64,000 nt of DNA from a virus: IMG/VR virus record IMGVR_UViG_3300015263_000599, positions 30,453 to 94,452 of that record; one strand, 5' to 3'. Within the stretch, counting starts at the first letter, position 1. Every line of letters begins with the position of its first letter. The position numbers were made by a program, and so were the translations under genes. Below are positions 3,440 through 64,000 of this stretch, piece after piece. The notes below the pieces were generated by a model that was given only the letters and a program-made list of their open reading frames with translations, was not told the origin of the DNA and made no database searches.

Positions 3440-3499
3440 ACTGATTCGCCGCAGTCGTGTCATGGATAAGACACGACTTCATCCACATGGACGTGAACA

Positions 3500-4030
3500 A
3501 TGGACAAAACACTGATCATCATGCGGGGACTCCCGTGGACCGGGAAATCCTATCGAGCAAAAGAACTGGCAGGCGACGACGGACTGATTTTCAGTACCGA
3601 TGACTATTGGTACGAAGTCAATAAACCGGACAAGCCCGACGAATACTCCTTCAACCCCCGGTTTTTGGGAGCCGCACACAAATGGAACATCCTGCGAGCA
3701 CAGCGGGCAATCGACATTGCCACTCCGCTCATTATCATTGACAATACGAATACCACGGCATCGGAGCCTCAGCCCTACGTCCAGTATGCTGACTGGCAGG
3801 AATACAAAATTTGTATTGAGGAGCCGACCAGTGAACGGTGGCAAGAGATTGCACAACTGCTCACCCGGAAACGTGACAACAAGAAGGAACTCAAGCAGTG
3901 GGCCGAAAAGCTCGCTGAAGGAAGCAAGGAAACCCACAAAGTTCCAGCGTGGGCAATCGAACGAATGATGTGGCGGTGGCAATGTGGCCTTACCGTCGAA
4001 CAAATTCTGGAATCCAAACCACCTCAGTAA
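3500..4030 (+). CDS. P-loop polynucleotide-kinase-like protein (AAA_33/N4BP2-like)
   Basis: IIMRGLPWTGKS, STDDY, IIIDNTN, THKVP..AIERM. Confidence 0.85.
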   Translation: MDKTLIIMRGLPWTGKSYRAKELAGDDGLIFSTDDYWYEVNKPDKPDEYSFNPRFLGAAHKWNILRAQRAIDIATPLIIIDNTNTTASEPQPYVQYADWQEYKICIEEPTSERWQEIAQLLTRKRDNKKELKQWAEKLAEGSKETHKVPAWAIERMMWRWQCGLTVEQILESKPPQ

Positions 4031-60596: not shown

Positions 60597-61427
60597 CTAT
60601 GCGGCTGCTGACTCGTCCATTTTATACTTCTTGCGAAGTTTTGCAATCTCTTTCCCGTTGGCCGATTCCTTCGCCACGCAGTACCAGTATTTGTCATTGG
60701 TGCTGAGGCCGTACTTGGTCTTCAGTTCCCGAGTCAACGACCATGTGTTCGAAGTCCAGTTATCGCTCATGCCGAATGCTTCACGGAGTGGGTTCTCCCA
60801 GTCCTGATACTTGTAGCGATAGTTGATCTGGCCGGTGCGGTAGTTGCGGACGTAGCGGGTTCGCTCGATCTTTCGCAACTCTTTCATCTGGACTCGATAC
60901 CAGAGTCCTTCGTGTTCGTGATACAGCACGCCATCCATCTCGAAGACCTTCTGGGCCTCGTCCTCACGGTGCCACTTACGGTGTGGCTGGATGTAATGGA
61001 GGATGCCGGTCTCAGGATGGACATAGAAGCAATCGAACCAACGTCCGATCTTGTGGCCGTGTTCATTGACCACCTCGCCGTCCTGAATGAAACAGTTCTG
61101 TTCGACGGCGAATTCCATCCAAGAGCGAACCTCATAGCCTTCATAGGTGCGAGGATCGTATTCCGAGCAGATGGCTTGCCAGACTTCATCCCACGACTTG
61201 CCAACATGCTTGCGGAGCAGGCGGCGGATCATGGCGTGGTCAACCCACGCATAGCGGCCATCATCGAACTTGTTGGCGACCTGATGGACCTTGCGAGTTC
61301 CCATCTTCACATCGATGGGCATTCCGTCTTCGTCACAACCTGCTTGCAGGAATTTCTTCGAGTTGCGGGGGTAATGTCCCTTCTTCCCCGAGCGGCTTTT
61401 CAGCATCTTTTTCTTGCGTCTTCTCAT
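60597..61427 (-). CDS. Hypothetical basic protein
   Basis: GGAG RBS; RRLLRKHVGKSWDEVW, FYVHPETGIL. Confidence 0.75.
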   Translation of the reverse strand: MRRRKKKMLKSRSGKKGHYPRNSKKFLQAGCDEDGMPIDVKMGTRKVHQVANKFDDGRYAWVDHAMIRRLLRKHVGKSWDEVWQAICSEYDPRTYEGYEVRSWMEFAVEQNCFIQDGEVVNEHGHKIGRWFDCFYVHPETGILHYIQPHRKWHREDEAQKVFEMDGVLYHEHEGLWYRVQMKELRKIERTRYVRNYRTGQINYRYKYQDWENPLREAFGMSDNWTSNTWSLTRELKTKYGLSTNDKYWYCVAKESANGKEIAKLRKKYKMDESAAA

Positions 61428-61933
61428 GTTTTCTCCAACACGCACAAACGGTCCCGTTCAGAAATTTGCAAAGAGAATCGGTCGGCGATGGTCTTTGCTA
61501 ATCTCATCTCAGGCTCTCGATTTGTGTCATCGATGACAAAGATTGTGTGAGGGTGTGCAAGTGTGTCAAGGTGACTCAGAATCCCTTCTCGGCCAATGTG
61601 TCCCGGAGGACCATCAATGAAGATTAAGTCCTTGGGGCCATCAGGCTCCCAGTTGTACCACAAGGGCCTGCCATACAAACTGCGATGAAACAGTTGGACA
61701 TTGGGAAGATCTCTGGTCAGCACCCGCTTGTAGGAATCTTCATGATTCTCTAAGGCAATGTGTTGACAAGGCAGTGTGCCGAACAACCACGTTGAGAGGC
61801 CGCTCCCTGTTTCAAGGGTTCGGAATCCCGGACGCACGAGTTCGGCAAGGCAGTTCCAGCATTGTTGGGTGATTACCCAACCGTTGGTCCCGCTGATCTG
61901 GACCCACTGTGCCAAAGTCTCTTGATAACTCAC
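61424..61933 (-). CDS. Class I SAM-dependent methyltransferase (glycan-associated type)
   Basis: LETGSGLST, ALEN, LIFIDGPPG, VIDD..R. Confidence 0.85.
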   Translation of the reverse strand: MSYQETLAQWVQISGTNGWVITQQCWNCLAELVRPGFRTLETGSGLSTWLFGTLPCQHIALENHEDSYKRVLTRDLPNVQLFHRSLYGRPLWYNWEPDGPKDLIFIDGPPGHIGREGILSHLDTLAHPHTIFVIDDTNREPEMRLAKTIADRFSLQISERDRLCVLEKT

Positions 61934-61936
61934 ACT

Positions 61937-62428
61937 CTAGTTATCGTTGCCGCTGGCATTCTGCTTGAGTGCAGCGTCAACAAATGCTTGTATGTCATCA
62001 CGCCAGAGGCCGTGTCGCCGCACGACGCAGGAGAATTCCTCAAGATCGTGGGGTCTCAAGGACAGTTTGACGACATCTTCGCTTCCATCTGTCTCTTCGT
62101 CCTGCTGAGCCTCGGCCCACGCATGACAAAGCTCGTGATCGACCAGTGCGACCTTAGACTTAGGAGGCAAAACCTCCCACACAGGTTCGCTGATTGTGAT
62201 CACAAAAAATGGATCGGAGCCATCTTGTCCGTTCGCCAGAAAGGCGTTGAGATTGGAGATCTTGCGACAAGTTCCCCAAACTTCACGGCCTTTGGCCTTG
62301 GGCGTCTTGTCGATGAAGACGTACTCGATTCGCACGTCGAAGTCGATGAGGTGTTGGTGGTATTTGGGAATCAGATCTTCAGCGATCTGTTTCACTTCCG
62401 GGGCTGGGGTGTAAATTGCTGTCGCCAT
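61937..62428 (-). CDS. Putative phage metallopeptidase
   Basis: ALVDHELCH (HExxH), PHDLEEF..VVRRHG. Confidence 0.85.
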   Translation of the reverse strand: MATAIYTPAPEVKQIAEDLIPKYHQHLIDFDVRIEYVFIDKTPKAKGREVWGTCRKISNLNAFLANGQDGSDPFFVITISEPVWEVLPPKSKVALVDHELCHAWAEAQQDEETDGSEDVVKLSLRPHDLEEFSCVVRRHGLWRDDIQAFVDAALKQNASGNDN

Positions 62429-62648
62429 CCTTGGGTCTCCCTCGTGAACAAACTTCCGTGTAATGTTCTTCCAGATCGGCCAGCGTTGCCCTCAGTTGTG
62501 CAAACTGGAAAGGATCATCGCTGTTCGCCATGATGTTCAAAGCACGAAGCGTATCTCCCTGCACGACCAGTCCCGGAAAGCTCCTGCCGGGCACGAGCAC
62601 GACGACTCGGTTGGTTGTGTTGTCAAGGATTTCGGCTTTCATGGTCAT
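62379..62648 (-). CDS. Hypothetical protein
   Basis: VVLVPGRSFPGLVVQGDTL. Confidence 0.6.
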   Translation of the reverse strand: MTMKAEILDNTTNRVVVLVPGRSFPGLVVQGDTLRALNIMANSDDPFQFAQLRATLADLEEHYTEVCSRGRPKDGDSNLHPSPGSETDR

Positions 62649-62666
62649 GGCATCACAAGAAAAAGC

Positions 62667-62894
62667 GGAGGGGCCTCTGGAAATCCCGTATTTCGAAGGC
62701 AGAGTCGCCCGGCGAAGGAATCCCAAAGAAAGATAAAATGAGGCTTACGTCGTTCTTCGTGAGACTTGCAACTAGATGAAGCTTGAGTCGTGAGTACACG
62801 GCATATGTCAGTTCGTTAACAATGCGATTGTTGGTACTGGTTCAACCCAATAAGTTGCATCTTCTTCCGAGATCCGACTTCCTTCAGCCCCTCC
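62667..62894 (-). ncRNA. Candidate structured ncRNA downstream of coiled-coil gene
   Basis: Nested long-range helices GGAGGGGC/GCCCCTCC, GGAAGTC/GATTTCC, a 16/17-bp helix, GCAACT/AGTTGC; followed by T tract. Confidence 0.7.
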
Positions 62895-62900
62895 TGATTC

Positions 62901-63362
62901 TTATGGAAGCTGCGGGTCCGCAACTTCCACATTGTTCGTGGCGTTGTGAGCGTCGATCTTCGTCTGAAGCTCGTCCACTCGCTTCTGCAAAGTGTCGGTC
63001 ATCGTGTCCACTTCCGGCTTCGTGATCTCAGCCGTATAGGTGGTCGTGGTTTCTTCACGATACCGGCCCTTGATCTGACCCTTTGTGGTCGGGATGCGTT
63101 GCAGGAAAGCCAGTTCCGCCTTGGCTTCAGCCAACTCGAAGACGAGTTGCTGGATCGGCTGGGTGGCCTTCTGGAGAGCCAGCTTGAACTGGACCAAGTG
63201 TTTGACCCACGCTTCACGCTGCTTGAGGCAGAGGCGGACATCGGCGTCCCGCTCTTCTCCCTCGATCTTGCTGTTGTTGCTCTGGATGTCCGATTCGAGC
63301 TTTCGAATCTTCTCGACGATCCGCTTCTTGTACCGCAAGGCACGGGAAAGTGTCATCTGCAT
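62901..63362 (-). CDS. Coiled-coil protein (DIP1984/DUF6847-like)
   Basis: MTLSRALRYKKRI...LQKRVDELQTKIDAHNAT..VEV; AAGGAGG RBS. Confidence 0.8.
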   Translation of the reverse strand: MQMTLSRALRYKKRIVEKIRKLESDIQSNNSKIEGEERDADVRLCLKQREAWVKHLVQFKLALQKATQPIQQLVFELAEAKAELAFLQRIPTTKGQIKGRYREETTTTYTAEITKPEVDTMTDTLQKRVDELQTKIDAHNATNNVEVADPQLP

Positions 63363-63414
63363 ATTGGTTCCTCCTTGTGTGAGCCGAGTAGTTTACCAAT
63401 CTGGCGATTTGAAG

Positions 63415-63603
63415 TCAAGTCCAAGTAAGATGAGATGCTAACCACGCACAAAGAACACCAGCAGCCAACCAACAGAGCAAGGAATAGATGATTGCCCAGA
63501 AATAGTCGGCTTGGATGGTTCTCGATTTGTAGAGACCTAGCTTCGTGAGAATTGCAAGTATTACAATCCCCGGAATACACAAGATGACATAGAAGAAGTC
63601 CAT
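63415..63603 (-). CDS. Small two-TM membrane protein
   Basis: MDFFYVILCIPGIVILAIL... Confidence 0.55.
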   Translation of the reverse strand: MDFFYVILCIPGIVILAILTKLGLYKSRTIQADYFWAIIYSLLCWLAAGVLCAWLASHLTWT

Positions 63604-63605
63604 CC

Positions 63606-63911
63606 TTAGCGAACCGTAAACTTCGGTCCTCCCGGCCCCTTCAGGTCTGGCCCGAGTTCGCTCATCAGCTTCATTCGCTGCATAGCTTCTCGTTCCATTT
63701 CTTTCTGTGCGAAAGTTCGAGCGATCAACCACTTGCGGTAGTCATCGTTGAGCTTCATGACCTCAGAAGGAGGCCAGTTGTAGTGATACATGAGGAAGAA
63801 CATCTCTTCGTCCGCCTCGGTAGGCTGGAACTTCAGTTCTTCTTCTTGATTTTCGGCTGCGTTTTCTGCGTTCTCGTTTTGAACGTCTTCGGGTAGCAAA
63901 ATTTCTGACAT
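63606..63911 (-). CDS. Hypothetical protein, possibly tail/baseplate assembly chaperone-like
   Basis: GGAGG RBS; EEMFFLMYHYNWPPSEVMKL...RKWLI resembles small tail-chaperone motifs. Confidence 0.55.
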   Translation of the reverse strand: MSEILLPEDVQNENAENAAENQEEELKFQPTEADEEMFFLMYHYNWPPSEVMKLNDDYRKWLIARTFAQKEMEREAMQRMKLMSELGPDLKGPGGPKFTVR

Positions 63912-63959
63912 GAGAATACCTCCGCACTATAACAGTACGGAGGCGGCGATTTTCTAAGG

Positions 63960-64000
63960 TAGCCTCGGCGGGAGTCGAACCCGCAACGTCACTGAGGACC
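63960..64000 (-). tRNA. 3' half of a tRNA or tRNA-like RNA, truncated at window edge; isotype not determinable
   Basis: Minus strand ...GCGGG-TTCGACT-CCCGC-CGAGGCT-A: canonical T arm and acceptor 3' strand. Confidence 0.65.

What the first reader, a model, noticed from the sequence alone, without database searches (positions are those of the whole stretch)
62667..63362. Coiled-coil gene followed immediately by a 228-nt highly paired RNA: candidate protein-ncRNA module
Seen on the minus strand, starting 6 nt after the stop codon: GGAGGGGC(62894-87) pairs with GCCCCTCC(62674-67). Nested inside are GGAAGTC/GATTTCC, a 16-of-17-bp helix (62875-59 with 62734-18) and GCAACT/AGTTGC, plus inner hairpins TATTGG/CCAGTA, AACAAT/ATTGTT and CGTG/CACG. 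A T tract follows the closing stem. No credible ORF covers it in a genome that is otherwise wall-to-wall coding. The upstream 153-aa helical protein resembles the uncharacterised DIP1984/DUF6847-like family (recognised by eye). Inference: a co-transcribed RNA-protein pair, either a ribonucleoprotein, a type III toxin-antitoxin-like unit or a regulatory 3' element.
Basis: partly seen in the sequence, partly recalled or inferred. Interest (0 to 1): 0.72.

Follow-up and report, generated by a model that had tools for sequence, protein, structure and literature searches.

The report
Heptad-repeat RNA behind DIP1984-like phage gene
Right behind a small helical-protein gene of unknown function, this uncultured large phage carries a real, conserved RNA of about 228 bases, closed by a long stem and showing a row of UCA units about seven bases apart; gene and RNA occur together in nearly all related phage loci I could fetch, match no catalogued RNA family, and probably form an undescribed protein-RNA particle.

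Summary
On the minus strand, 6 nt after the stop codon of a 153-aa gene (62901-63362), lies a 228-nt gene-free element (62894-62667). Its two ends pair into a long rod. It folds better than shuffled sequence on the sense strand only (z -3.2, against -1.1).

Nine other distinct loci have a related gene. Eight show the same build: a G-rich 5' strand a few bases after the stop, a matching 3' strand 160-230 nt later, an inner helix, and a central unpaired tract. In most, that tract has short units repeating every 7 nt (here UCA-A-G-W-Y). Each element's two arms pair far better with each other than with another element's arms (-30.0 against -17.7 kcal/mol; 0 of 20,000 permutations).

The protein is a distant, sub-threshold relative of the DIP1984/DUF6847 family, whose function is unknown. 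Its best structural match is PDB 3KDQ, and it is predicted to form a dimer. Rfam and the searchable literature have nothing on the RNA.

Best reading (about 0.55): a dedicated ribonucleoprotein in which protein dimers bind the heptad row. Main rival: a HutP-like, protein-controlled terminator.

I found no expression data. This scan has already noted the same gene-plus-RNA pairing on other DNA (at least 43 genomes).

The parts
63390..63418 (-). Sigma-70-like promoter candidate (TTGACT, 17-nt spacer, TAAACT, with TG) 28 nt upstream of the protein gene's start codon
   Evidence: It is one match where 1.3 are expected by chance, so it is weak alone. By eye, TTGnnn-17-TAnnnT hexamers sit at the same place in L002, L008, L009 and L010.
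62901..63362 (-). 153-aa DIP1984-like helical protein gene, with a strong AAGGAGG ribosome-binding site
   Evidence: NF038048 matches 29 of 32 homologues at E<0.01 over the full length but below its cut-off. PF20935 matches 12 of 32. AlphaFold2 model pLDDT 91. Top Foldseek hit 3KDQ, E 9.6e-4, TM 0.57. Family of 1,620 clusters.
62667..62894 (-). Whole RNA element (228 nt), from the 5' strand to the 3' strand of the closing stem
62886..62894 (-). P1 5' strand (GGAGGGGCU); pairs with 62675-62667
   Evidence: An equivalent stem with different sequence is present in L008, L009, L010, L013, L014, L004, L015 and L055.
62876..62882 (-). P1b 5' strand (GGAAGUC); pairs with 62685-62679
62858..62875 (-). 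P2 5' strand (10 + 7 bp with one bulge); pairs with 62735-62718
   Evidence: Covarying helices 2 and 3.
62835..62852 (-). Small 5'-domain hairpin (UAUUGG/CCAGUA); this region varies between relatives
62801..62825 (-). Internal hairpin containing the conserved CGCAUUG block (GCA/UGC pairs conserved)
   Evidence: helix 4
62737..62797 (-). Heptad tract: about 8 units of consensus UCA-A-G-W-Y. UCA starts at 62793, 62786, 62779, 62762 and 62741, giving gaps of 7, 7, 17 and 21 nt.
62718..62735 (-). P2 3' strand. It overlaps the conserved block CUCAUUUUAUCUU that ends the heptad tract.
62692..62716 (-). P3, a small branch hairpin on the 3' side (CCGG-type hairpin in L008, L009 and L010)
   Evidence: (helix 5)
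62667..62685 (-). 3' strands of P1b and P1 (GAUUUCC ... GGCCCCUCC)
62657..62664 (-). U-rich run directly after P1; possible 3' end of the RNA
   Evidence: U-rich runs also follow P1 in L009, L013, L014, L015 and L055.
62379..62648 (-). Downstream neighbour: DUF6959 protein (89 aa). Not a conserved partner; absent in L002, L009 and L010.
61937..62428 (-). Phage metallopeptidase (PF18894), a frequent downstream neighbour in this clade

Best explanation
The gene at 62901-63362 and the 228-nt element at 62894-62667 form one module, transcribed together from a promoter just upstream of the gene.

The RNA folds into a long rod (P1, P1b, P2) made from its first ~37 and last ~70 nucleotides. The rod closes a large loop. 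That loop holds small variable hairpins and a single-stranded row of about eight units, each 7 nt long (UCA-A-G-W-Y).

The DIP1984-like protein is a three-helix bundle with a small sheet and is predicted to be an antiparallel dimer. Its N-terminal helix carries a conserved basic motif (RALRYKKR). I propose that several copies bind the evenly spaced UCA units, so that protein and RNA form a stable ribonucleoprotein, with the rod protecting the RNA ends.

Shown: the RNA structure, its conservation, its strand, the periodicity, and its linkage to the gene.
Inferred: co-transcription, protein-RNA binding, and stoichiometry.
Unknown: what the particle does. The nearby tRNA genes, here and in L004/L006, hint at tRNA or RNA metabolism during infection.
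For: - Sense-strand fold: z = -3.2 here, against -1.1 on the antisense strand. z is -3.2 or lower in 7 of 10 family elements.
- Conserved placement: 8 of the 9 other distinct loci with a homologous gene (protein identity down to ~28%) have a 157-218-nt gene-free element. It starts 5-15 nt after the stop codon, except ~115 nt in L055, and is closed by a 5'/3' stem.
- Swap test: each element's own arms pair at a mean of -30.0 kcal/mol, against -17.7 (sd 5.2) for arms from different elements. The own pairing is the best in both row and column for 7 of 9, and 0 of 20,000 permutations match it.
- Strand: sense-strand arm pairing beats antisense in 8 of 8, with 1-7 G-U pairs in each.
- Covariation on six sequences: 82% of cells are paired, against 51-55% when partners are slid. 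Nine pairs change on both sides. 0 of 500 shuffles reach the observed value.
- Periodicity: lag 7 is the best self-match lag in 7 of 10 elements. In the window, 24 of 49 positions match, reached by 4 of 1,000 shuffles. UCA gaps are 7,9,7,8,7,7 in L014 and 7,8,7,7,14 in L010.
- The unit changes with the protein clade: UUAAAAG in L055 and UGUAG in L015. That is what co-evolving recognition would produce.
- Canonical terminators follow the element in L010 and L013, and a new promoter-like site follows in L013, so the module is a closed transcription unit there.
- In L002 the gene carries a frameshift and the 3' half of the RNA is replaced. This is a single case of joint decay.
- Predicted homodimer: ipSAE 0.72, best of 3 controls 0.00. 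That mark was reached by 20 of 30 proteins solved as pairs of one chain and 1 of 23 solved as single chains. The runs agree in at least 98% of contacts and the partner's pLDDT is at least 90. The pass may come from memory of the solved relative 3KDQ.
Against: - There is no expression or binding data.
- The comparative set is small: 10 distinct loci, 6 of them alignable.
- In the window itself the periodicity is weak. Only three of five UCA units are in strict register, and the triplet test alone is not significant (314 of 500 shuffles).
- L004 and L006 show no 7-nt period, and the closing stem of L006 is poor.
- L010 folds no better than shuffled sequence (z = -0.5).
- The comparative structure costs 14 kcal/mol more than this sequence's minimum-energy fold.
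- The protein has no recognised RNA-binding domain.
Confidence: 0.55

Rival explanations
1. HutP/TRAP-like attenuation. The protein binds the periodic triplets in the nascent RNA and alters formation of the rod (P2/P1 plus the U run), so that it controls read-through into the downstream genes. On this reading the RNA is a cis-acting leader or terminator, not a free particle.
For: - The gene order matches hutP: regulator gene, then an RNA with triplets at 7-nt spacing, then further genes on the same strand. The hut layout is from established knowledge of the Bacillus subtilis hut operon.
- A U-rich run follows P1 in the window, L009, L013, L014, L015 and L055.
- The last heptad units overlap the 3' strand of P2, so bound protein could compete with the rod.
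Against: - No downstream gene is conserved. What follows is DUF6959, a metallopeptidase, a 90-aa ORF, or 229-aa and 359-aa ORFs.
- In L008 the first long downstream frame, a 61-aa stop-to-stop frame, lies on the opposite strand; the next sizeable same-strand frame starts about 600 nt away.
- In L010 and L013 a strong canonical terminator lies outside P1, where the repeats cannot affect it.
- A long-range stem enclosing about 200 nt is a poor intrinsic terminator.
- The scan found no terminator on this strand in the window.
Confidence: 0.2
2. A stable 3' UTR or terminator structure that protects the gene's mRNA. No specific protein binds it, and the repeats are incidental.
For: The element starts 5-15 nt after the stop codon in most loci and ends in a U-rich run.
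Against: - An mRNA-stabilising hairpin needs neither about 200 nt of conserved architecture nor a conserved unpaired tract.
- The same 7-nt period with different unit sequences appears in distant clades (L055, L015).
- The sequence blocks AGUCGGAAG, GAUGCAA and CUCAUUUUAUCUU are conserved across loci whose proteins are only ~60% identical.
Confidence: 0.1
3. A DNA-level element: an iteron or operator array (origin, partition site or operator) bound by a DNA-binding protein.
For: It has short degenerate direct repeats beside a small basic protein gene, followed by an A+T-rich block. This was my first impression of the repeats.
Against: - A 7-bp spacing puts successive sites on different faces of B-DNA, unlike iterons phased at about 10.5-11 bp or multiples of that.
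- The long-range arm complementarity covaries and is stronger on the sense strand, through G-U pairs, in 8 of 8 elements.
- The fold z-score is strand-asymmetric in the window, L009 and L015.
Confidence: 0.05
4. A type III toxin-antitoxin-like pair, in which the RNA neutralises a toxic protein.
For: A protein gene lies beside a repeat-containing RNA in a phage.
Against: - The units are 7 nt, not about 34-40 nt.
- The RNA follows the gene, and no terminator lies between them.
- No ToxN, AbiQ or other endoribonuclease family was found. The only PADLOC match is a chance-level coiled-coil hit at E 0.009.
- The fold is DIP1984-like.
Confidence: 0.03

Closest known systems
HutP with the hut leader RNA (Bacillus subtilis); also TRAP with the trp leader
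   Same: An oligomeric protein reads a row of triplets at fixed spacing in single-stranded RNA. In HutP the NAG triplets are 7 nt apart, and the hutP gene sits directly upstream of its RNA site, as here.
   Different: HutP and TRAP have unrelated folds; no such hit appears. Their RNA is a short leader that overlaps a terminator. Here a 160-230-nt rod-closed RNA displays the tract in a loop, the triplet is UCA, and the downstream genes are not conserved.
VIPR systems: Vipr protein plus vrRNA (bioRxiv 10.64898/2026.04.26.720920 and 10.64898/2026.04.26.720927)
   Same: Both are phage-encoded. A protein gene lies next to a small RNA made of short tandem units with a fixed triplet and variable bases. 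Vipr protomers line up along the repeats.
   Different: VIPR has a 5-nt period (GGY/NN), 9-16 units, RNAs of about 100 nt with a 3' tail, and a RAMP-fold protein. Here the period is 7 nt (UCA plus 4), there are about 8 units, a long closing rod, and a helical DIP1984-like protein. The non-UCA positions are only moderately variable, so guide behaviour is not indicated.
DIP1984 family / DUF6847 (NCBIfam NF038048, Pfam PF20935; PDB 3KDQ from Corynebacterium diphtheriae), often annotated 'septicolysin'
   Same: The size is the same (~150 aa). The profile alignment covers the full length. 3KDQ is the top structural match. The nearest ESM Atlas clusters partly carry PF20935.
   Different: Scores are far below both curated cut-offs, and identity to 3KDQ is about 14%. 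This is a mainly viral sister branch. The family itself has no known function, and the papers I found only repeat the 'septicolysin' label.
Ro60 (Rsr) with bacterial Y RNAs
   Same: Both pair a protein gene with an adjacent dedicated structured non-coding RNA, and both are found in phages and near tRNA or RNA-repair genes. Other notes of this scan suggested this analogy.
   Different: The held 94 kb contains no TROVE-domain protein and no RtcB. Y RNAs have no periodic tract, and no Rfam Y RNA model matches.
Type III toxin-antitoxin systems (ToxIN, CptIN, TenpIN)
   Same: A protein gene lies next to a repeat RNA that it is expected to bind.
   Different: See the rival explanation: the unit length, the gene order and the protein fold all differ.

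Membership tests
DIP1984 family (NF038048) / DUF6847 (PF20935) | Profile score at or above the curated cut-off | tested here: not met
   NF038048 scores 24.9 bits against 70. PF20935 scores 17.2 bits against 27. The best among 71 wider relatives is E 1.1e-12, still sub-threshold.
DIP1984 family (NF038048) / DUF6847 (PF20935) | Full-length collinear match to the ~149-residue profile, in a protein of ~150 aa | tested here: met
   Residues 5-142 align to profile positions 2-146 of 149. 29 of 32 homologues match at E<0.01.
DIP1984 family (NF038048) / DUF6847 (PF20935) | Fold of the solved member, 3KDQ | tested here: met
   The AlphaFold2 model (pLDDT 91.2) has 3kdq_A as its top PDB hit: E 9.6e-4, probability 1.00, TM 0.57, 159 aligned columns. 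The next hit has E 0.087.
Heptad-repeat RNA that follows DIP1984-like genes (uncatalogued class noted elsewhere in this scan) | The element begins just after the stop codon of a DIP1984-like gene, on the same strand | tested here: met
   The gap is 6 nt here and 5-15 nt in L008, L009, L010, L013, L014, L004 and L015.
Heptad-repeat RNA that follows DIP1984-like genes (uncatalogued class noted elsewhere in this scan) | Closing stem formed by the two ends, with covariation | tested here: met
   Swap test, 0 of 20,000 permutations. Helix 1 has 4 pairs changed on both sides.
Heptad-repeat RNA that follows DIP1984-like genes (uncatalogued class noted elsewhere in this scan) | Central tract of short units with a 7-nt period | tested here: met
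   Lag 7 is the best lag in 7 of 10 elements. In the window 24 of 49 positions match, reached by 4 of 1,000 shuffles at lag 7 and by 50 of 1,000 at any lag. The signal is weaker here than in L014 or L055.
Heptad-repeat RNA that follows DIP1984-like genes (uncatalogued class noted elsewhere in this scan) | Sequence or model similarity to the other noted examples | tested here: not met
   Look-up by sequence found no look-alike among earlier windows, for either the RNA or the protein. Membership therefore rests on architecture only.
HutP / TRAP RNA-binding attenuation proteins | HutP or TRAP protein fold | tested here: not met
   No such Pfam or PDB hit.
HutP / TRAP RNA-binding attenuation proteins | Triplet repeats that overlap a terminator or antiterminator controlling downstream genes | tested here: inconclusive
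   The last units overlap the 3' strand of P2, and a U run follows P1. But downstream genes are not conserved, and independent terminators follow the element in L010 and L013.
VIPR (Vipr + vrRNA) | GGY/NN units with a 5-nt period, and a RAMP-fold Vipr protein | tested here: not met
   The units are UCA plus 4 nt with a 7-nt period. The protein is helical and DIP1984-like.
Type III toxin-antitoxin | Tandem ~34-40-nt RNA repeats upstream of an endoribonuclease toxin gene, separated from it by a terminator | tested here: not met
   The units are 7 nt and lie downstream of the gene. No toxin family matches in Pfam, PHROGs or PADLOC.
Any Rfam family | Covariance-model match | tested here: not met
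   No hit at gathering score in the whole window. With permissive filters on 62600-62950 the only hit is a chance-level Na+ riboswitch match (E 0.74), on the other strand and outside the element.

The most novel reading that the evidence does not exclude
The heptad row is a non-contiguous guide, not merely a binding platform. DIP1984-like dimers would clamp each fixed UCA and expose the four bases between, and these together would read a gapped target in DNA or RNA. That would be a second, unrelated invention of the VIPR logic, with a helical protein and a 7-nt code. It could be widespread, because the protein family has 1,620 clusters.
Probability: 0.08. Interest if true: 0.95.

Novelty: categorically new. 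Interest (0 to 1): 0.78.

Why it matters
A large, mostly viral protein family of unknown function would gain a partner and a testable activity. The family has 1,620 clusters at 50% identity that match this profile, and it is related to the bacterial DIP1984/'septicolysin' proteins.

The RNA would be a new class of structured non-coding RNA. Its design is unusual: a rod that presents an evenly spaced row of short units. This recalls HutP/TRAP targets and the recently described VIPR guide RNAs, but it uses an unrelated protein fold.

Because the module sits beside tRNA genes in several large phages, it may reveal a new way in which phages manipulate RNA metabolism or compete with other elements. 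It would also correct the misleading 'septicolysin' (cytolysin) annotation carried by relatives on clinical plasmids.

Tried and rejected
This limits the covariation statistics.
- The DNA pattern CAAGNNTCA...TCATTTTATCTT scanned over IMG/VR gave 38 hits. All were chance matches in A+T-rich coding DNA.
- Protein-profile scans found nothing in genome contigs. A broader alignment was too diverse to scan with. A narrower one found only the already known contig.
- Phage T5, named in other notes of this scan as a carrier, has no sequence match to NF038048 or to my profile. I could not confirm that claim by sequence.
- PLSDB plasmids gave no match to this protein, and accession FM210331 is not held. 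I therefore could not examine bona fide bacterial DIP1984 loci.
- Rfam gave nothing. PADLOC gave nothing meaningful.
- There is no RtcB or Ro60 in the held 94 kb.
- The PHROGs 'tail fiber' hit (E 4e-4, residues 90-150) is coiled-coil noise.
- RNAalifold on a plain MAFFT alignment recovered only the closing stem. A better alignment and constrained folds were needed.
- Iteron or origin reading: rejected on spacing and strand asymmetry.
- Small-ORF reading: rejected because relatives share no reading frame.
Full report
**Where it lies.** The window is the last 64 kb of a 94,452-base IMG/VR viral contig, estimated 67% complete. The region of the finding belongs to a run of minus-strand genes. In order these are:
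- the 3' part of a tRNA gene, cut by the contig end;
- a 101-aa acidic ORF and a 63-aa membrane ORF;
- the 153-aa gene (62901-63362);
- a gap of about 250 nt;
- a DUF6959 gene, a phage metallopeptidase (PF18894) and a methyltransferase-like gene.

**Observation.** The 241-nt stretch folds at -78.6 kcal/mol on the minus strand, with z = -3.21 and none of 200 dinucleotide shuffles as good. The plus strand gives z = -1.13. Rfam has no match at gathering score in the whole window and none with permissive filters. Only short unconserved ORFs touch the element.

**Protein.**
- Pfam DUF6847 and NCBIfam DIP1984_fam both align over the full length but far below their cut-offs. 29 of 32 close homologues hit DIP1984_fam at E<0.01, as do 41 of 71 wider relatives at E<0.001.
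- An AlphaFold2 model from a 32-sequence alignment is confident (pLDDT 91.2). It shows three long helices and a small four-stranded sheet.
- The only significant PDB neighbour is 3KDQ, a Corynebacterium diphtheriae protein of unknown function (E 9.6e-4, TM 0.57). Weak prefoldin-like hits follow.
- A profile search of 1.84 billion representatives finds 1,620 clusters at E<=0.001. The 150 listed are nearly all 140-170 aa.
- The nearest ESM Atlas clusters are mostly viral.
- A two-copy prediction gave ipSAE 0.72, with 0.00 for the best of 3 controls. That mark was reached by 20 of 30 proteins solved as pairs of one chain and by 1 of 23 solved as single chains. The runs agree in at least 98% of contacts and the partner's pLDDT is at least 90. 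A relative (3KDQ) is solved, so the pass may reflect likeness.
- The predicted interface uses the central helix and two loops. The conserved basic N-terminal helix (R7, R10, K13, R14) stays free.
- No paper in the library says what the family does. 'Septicolysin' is an inherited label.

**Related loci.** The tools found nine other distinct loci with a homologous gene:
- L002 (the same contig as L003 and L011)
- L008 (identical to L007)
- L009, L010, L013, L014
- L004 (identical to L005)
- L006, L015
- L055, from a 595-kb uncultured phage

In eight of these nine the gene is followed by 157-218 nt without a conserved ORF. L002 is the exception and is treated below.

A G-rich strand lies 5-15 nt after the stop codon (about 115 nt in L055, after a tiny lysine-rich ORF). 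It pairs with a C/U-rich strand at the far end. The paired sequences differ from locus to locus:

| Locus | 5' strand | 3' strand |
|---|---|---|
| window | GGAGGGGC | GCCCCTCC |
| L008 | GGGAG + CTAGGAGC | GCTCCTAG + CTCCC |
| L009 | GGGAGAG | CTCTCCC |
| L013 | GAGAGGG | CCCTCTC |
| L004 | GGAGAGACGA | TCGTCTCTCC |
| L055 | CACAGCTAG | CTAGCTGTG |

(L055)

**Tests of the structure.**
- Swap test. I paired the first 36 nt of each element with the last 50 nt of every element. An element's own arms give a mean of -30.0 kcal/mol; arms from different elements give -17.7 (sd 5.2). The own pairing ranks first in both row and column for 7 of 9 elements. None of 20,000 permutations reaches the observed total.
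- Strand. The same arms pair less well on the opposite strand in 8 of 8 cases, because 1-7 G-U pairs are used. This points to RNA made from the gene's strand, not to a DNA cruciform.
- Pair counts on the six alignable sequences, using a structure of five helices. 82.3% of cells are paired, against 51-55% when the partners are slid. Nine pairs change on both sides, against 1-6 when slid. 0 of 500 shuffles reach the observed value on four of five measures.
- Sense-strand z-scores are -3.2 or lower in 7 of 10 elements. L010, L004 and L006 are weaker.

**Common architecture.** With the repeat tract held unpaired, five of the six close elements fold the same way; L010 departs from this in its own fold (window coordinates):
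- a near-continuous rod: P1, P1b and P2;
- a small branch hairpin on the 3' side (P3);
- a large loop with variable hairpins and conserved blocks (AGUCGGAAG, GAUGCAA, CGCAUUG);
- the repeat tract, ending in CUCAUUUUAUCUU, which runs into the 3' strand of P2.

In the window this structure is 14 kcal/mol less stable than the minimum-energy fold. The minimum-energy fold pairs part of the tract, but the relatives do not share those pairs.

**The repeats.** I first read the CAAGNYTCA motifs as iterons. After earlier notes of this scan mentioned a 7-nt period, I tested for one.
- Gaps between UCA triplets:

| Locus | Gaps (nt) |
|---|---|
| L014 | 7, 9, 7, 8, 7, 7 |
| L010 | 7, 8, 7, 7, 14 |
| L008 | 7, 9, 7, 15, 7 |
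| L009 | 7, 7, 9, 7, 21 |
| window | 7, 7, 17, 21 |

- Lag 7 is the best self-match lag in 7 of 10 elements. In the window 24 of 49 positions match, reached by 4 of 1,000 shuffles at lag 7 and by 50 of 1,000 at any lag.
- The unit consensus is UCA-A-G-W-Y.
- L055 keeps the 7-nt period with a different unit (UUAAAAG). L015 keeps it weakly with UGUAG (35 of 1,000 shuffles reach its lag-7 count). L004 and L006 show no clear period.
- A 7-nt spacing suits single-stranded RNA read by a protein, as with HutP. It does not suit DNA iterons.

**Transcription unit.**
- A promoter-like site lies 28 nt upstream of the gene. Similar hexamers sit at the same place in four relatives, judged by eye.
- In L010 and L013 a 12-bp canonical terminator lies 11-12 nt after the element. 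In L013 a near-consensus promoter follows it.
- In L008 the first long frame downstream, a 61-aa stop-to-stop frame, is on the opposite strand.
- In L004 and L006 a tRNA gene ends about 30 nt before the protein gene.
- These points favour a self-contained gene-plus-RNA unit over a leader for the downstream genes.
- L002 is a decayed copy. A 7-nt tandem duplication (1234-1247) breaks the gene, and the 3' half of the RNA is replaced by unrelated sequence.

**Interpretation.** The RNA and its link to the gene are well supported. The proposed mechanism is inference: several protein dimers bound to the UCA row, held in a loop by a protective rod. It rests on three things:
- strict adjacency of gene and RNA;
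- a periodic unit that changes with the protein clade;
- the analogy to HutP, TRAP and VIPR.

The function is unknown. There is no RtcB or Ro60 in the held 94 kb. The neighbouring genes encode peptidases, methyltransferases and a HAD hydrolase.

The main rival is a HutP-like conditional terminator. The DNA-iteron, passive 3' UTR and type III toxin-antitoxin readings are less likely, for the reasons given under each rival.

**Relation to earlier notes of this scan.** The same kind of pair, a DIP1984-like gene followed by a heptad-repeat RNA, has been noted in at least 43 other genomes.
- No noted sequence resembles this one.
- I could not confirm by sequence the claim that phage T5 carries the pair.
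- I could not test the claims about circular RNA or rtc operons.
- I found no published description. The closest published system is VIPR. A 2026 survey of periodic intergenic arrays reports one 7-nt cluster, but with a different build and no partner protein.

Noticed in passing
window 63958-64000 (-): The 3' part of a tRNA gene is cut off by the contig end: T arm GCGGG-TTCGACT-CCCGC, acceptor 3' strand, discriminator A, then CC. ARAGORN cannot call it because it is truncated.
   Followed up: partly
L002:1234-1247 and L002:1560-1717: In the closest IMG/VR relative, a 7-nt tandem duplication (ACTGGGC twice) breaks the protein gene, and the 3' half of the RNA (heptads, P2 and P1 3' strands) is replaced by unrelated sequence. 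That sequence ends in a GC-rich hairpin like one that lies next to a TnpB-like fragment at L002:3-368.
   Followed up: partly
L055:2990-3076: In the 595-kb phage LR756511, a 28-codon lysine-rich ORF (MAKGKTPKKEPKK...) sits between the DIP1984-like gene and its RNA. The RNA's heptad unit there is UUAAAAG.
   Followed up: no
L004:300-330, L006:2470-2500: In two AT-rich phage records, one of them a complete 289-kb jumbo genome, a tRNA gene ends about 30 nt before the DIP1984-like gene, and what looks like another tRNA gene follows the next gene. The module therefore appears to sit inside a tRNA cluster.
   Followed up: no
L008:3175-3230 and L014:500-560: A second conserved non-coding block (TTTGAnCCATGGGGyTGCGGmAGCCT...) follows the RNA in these two loci only. 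In L008, a Pmp3-like small membrane ORF on the opposite strand lies further on (3477-3662).
   Followed up: no
window 60597-61445 (-): This 282-aa basic protein has no family match. It is a conserved neighbour of the module: it lies upstream of the module in L007/L008 and downstream in L010.
   Followed up: no
window 63606-63911 (-): A small acidic ORF (MSEILLPE...) directly upstream is conserved in L002, L009 and L008. It matches no family in Pfam or PHROGs.
   Followed up: no
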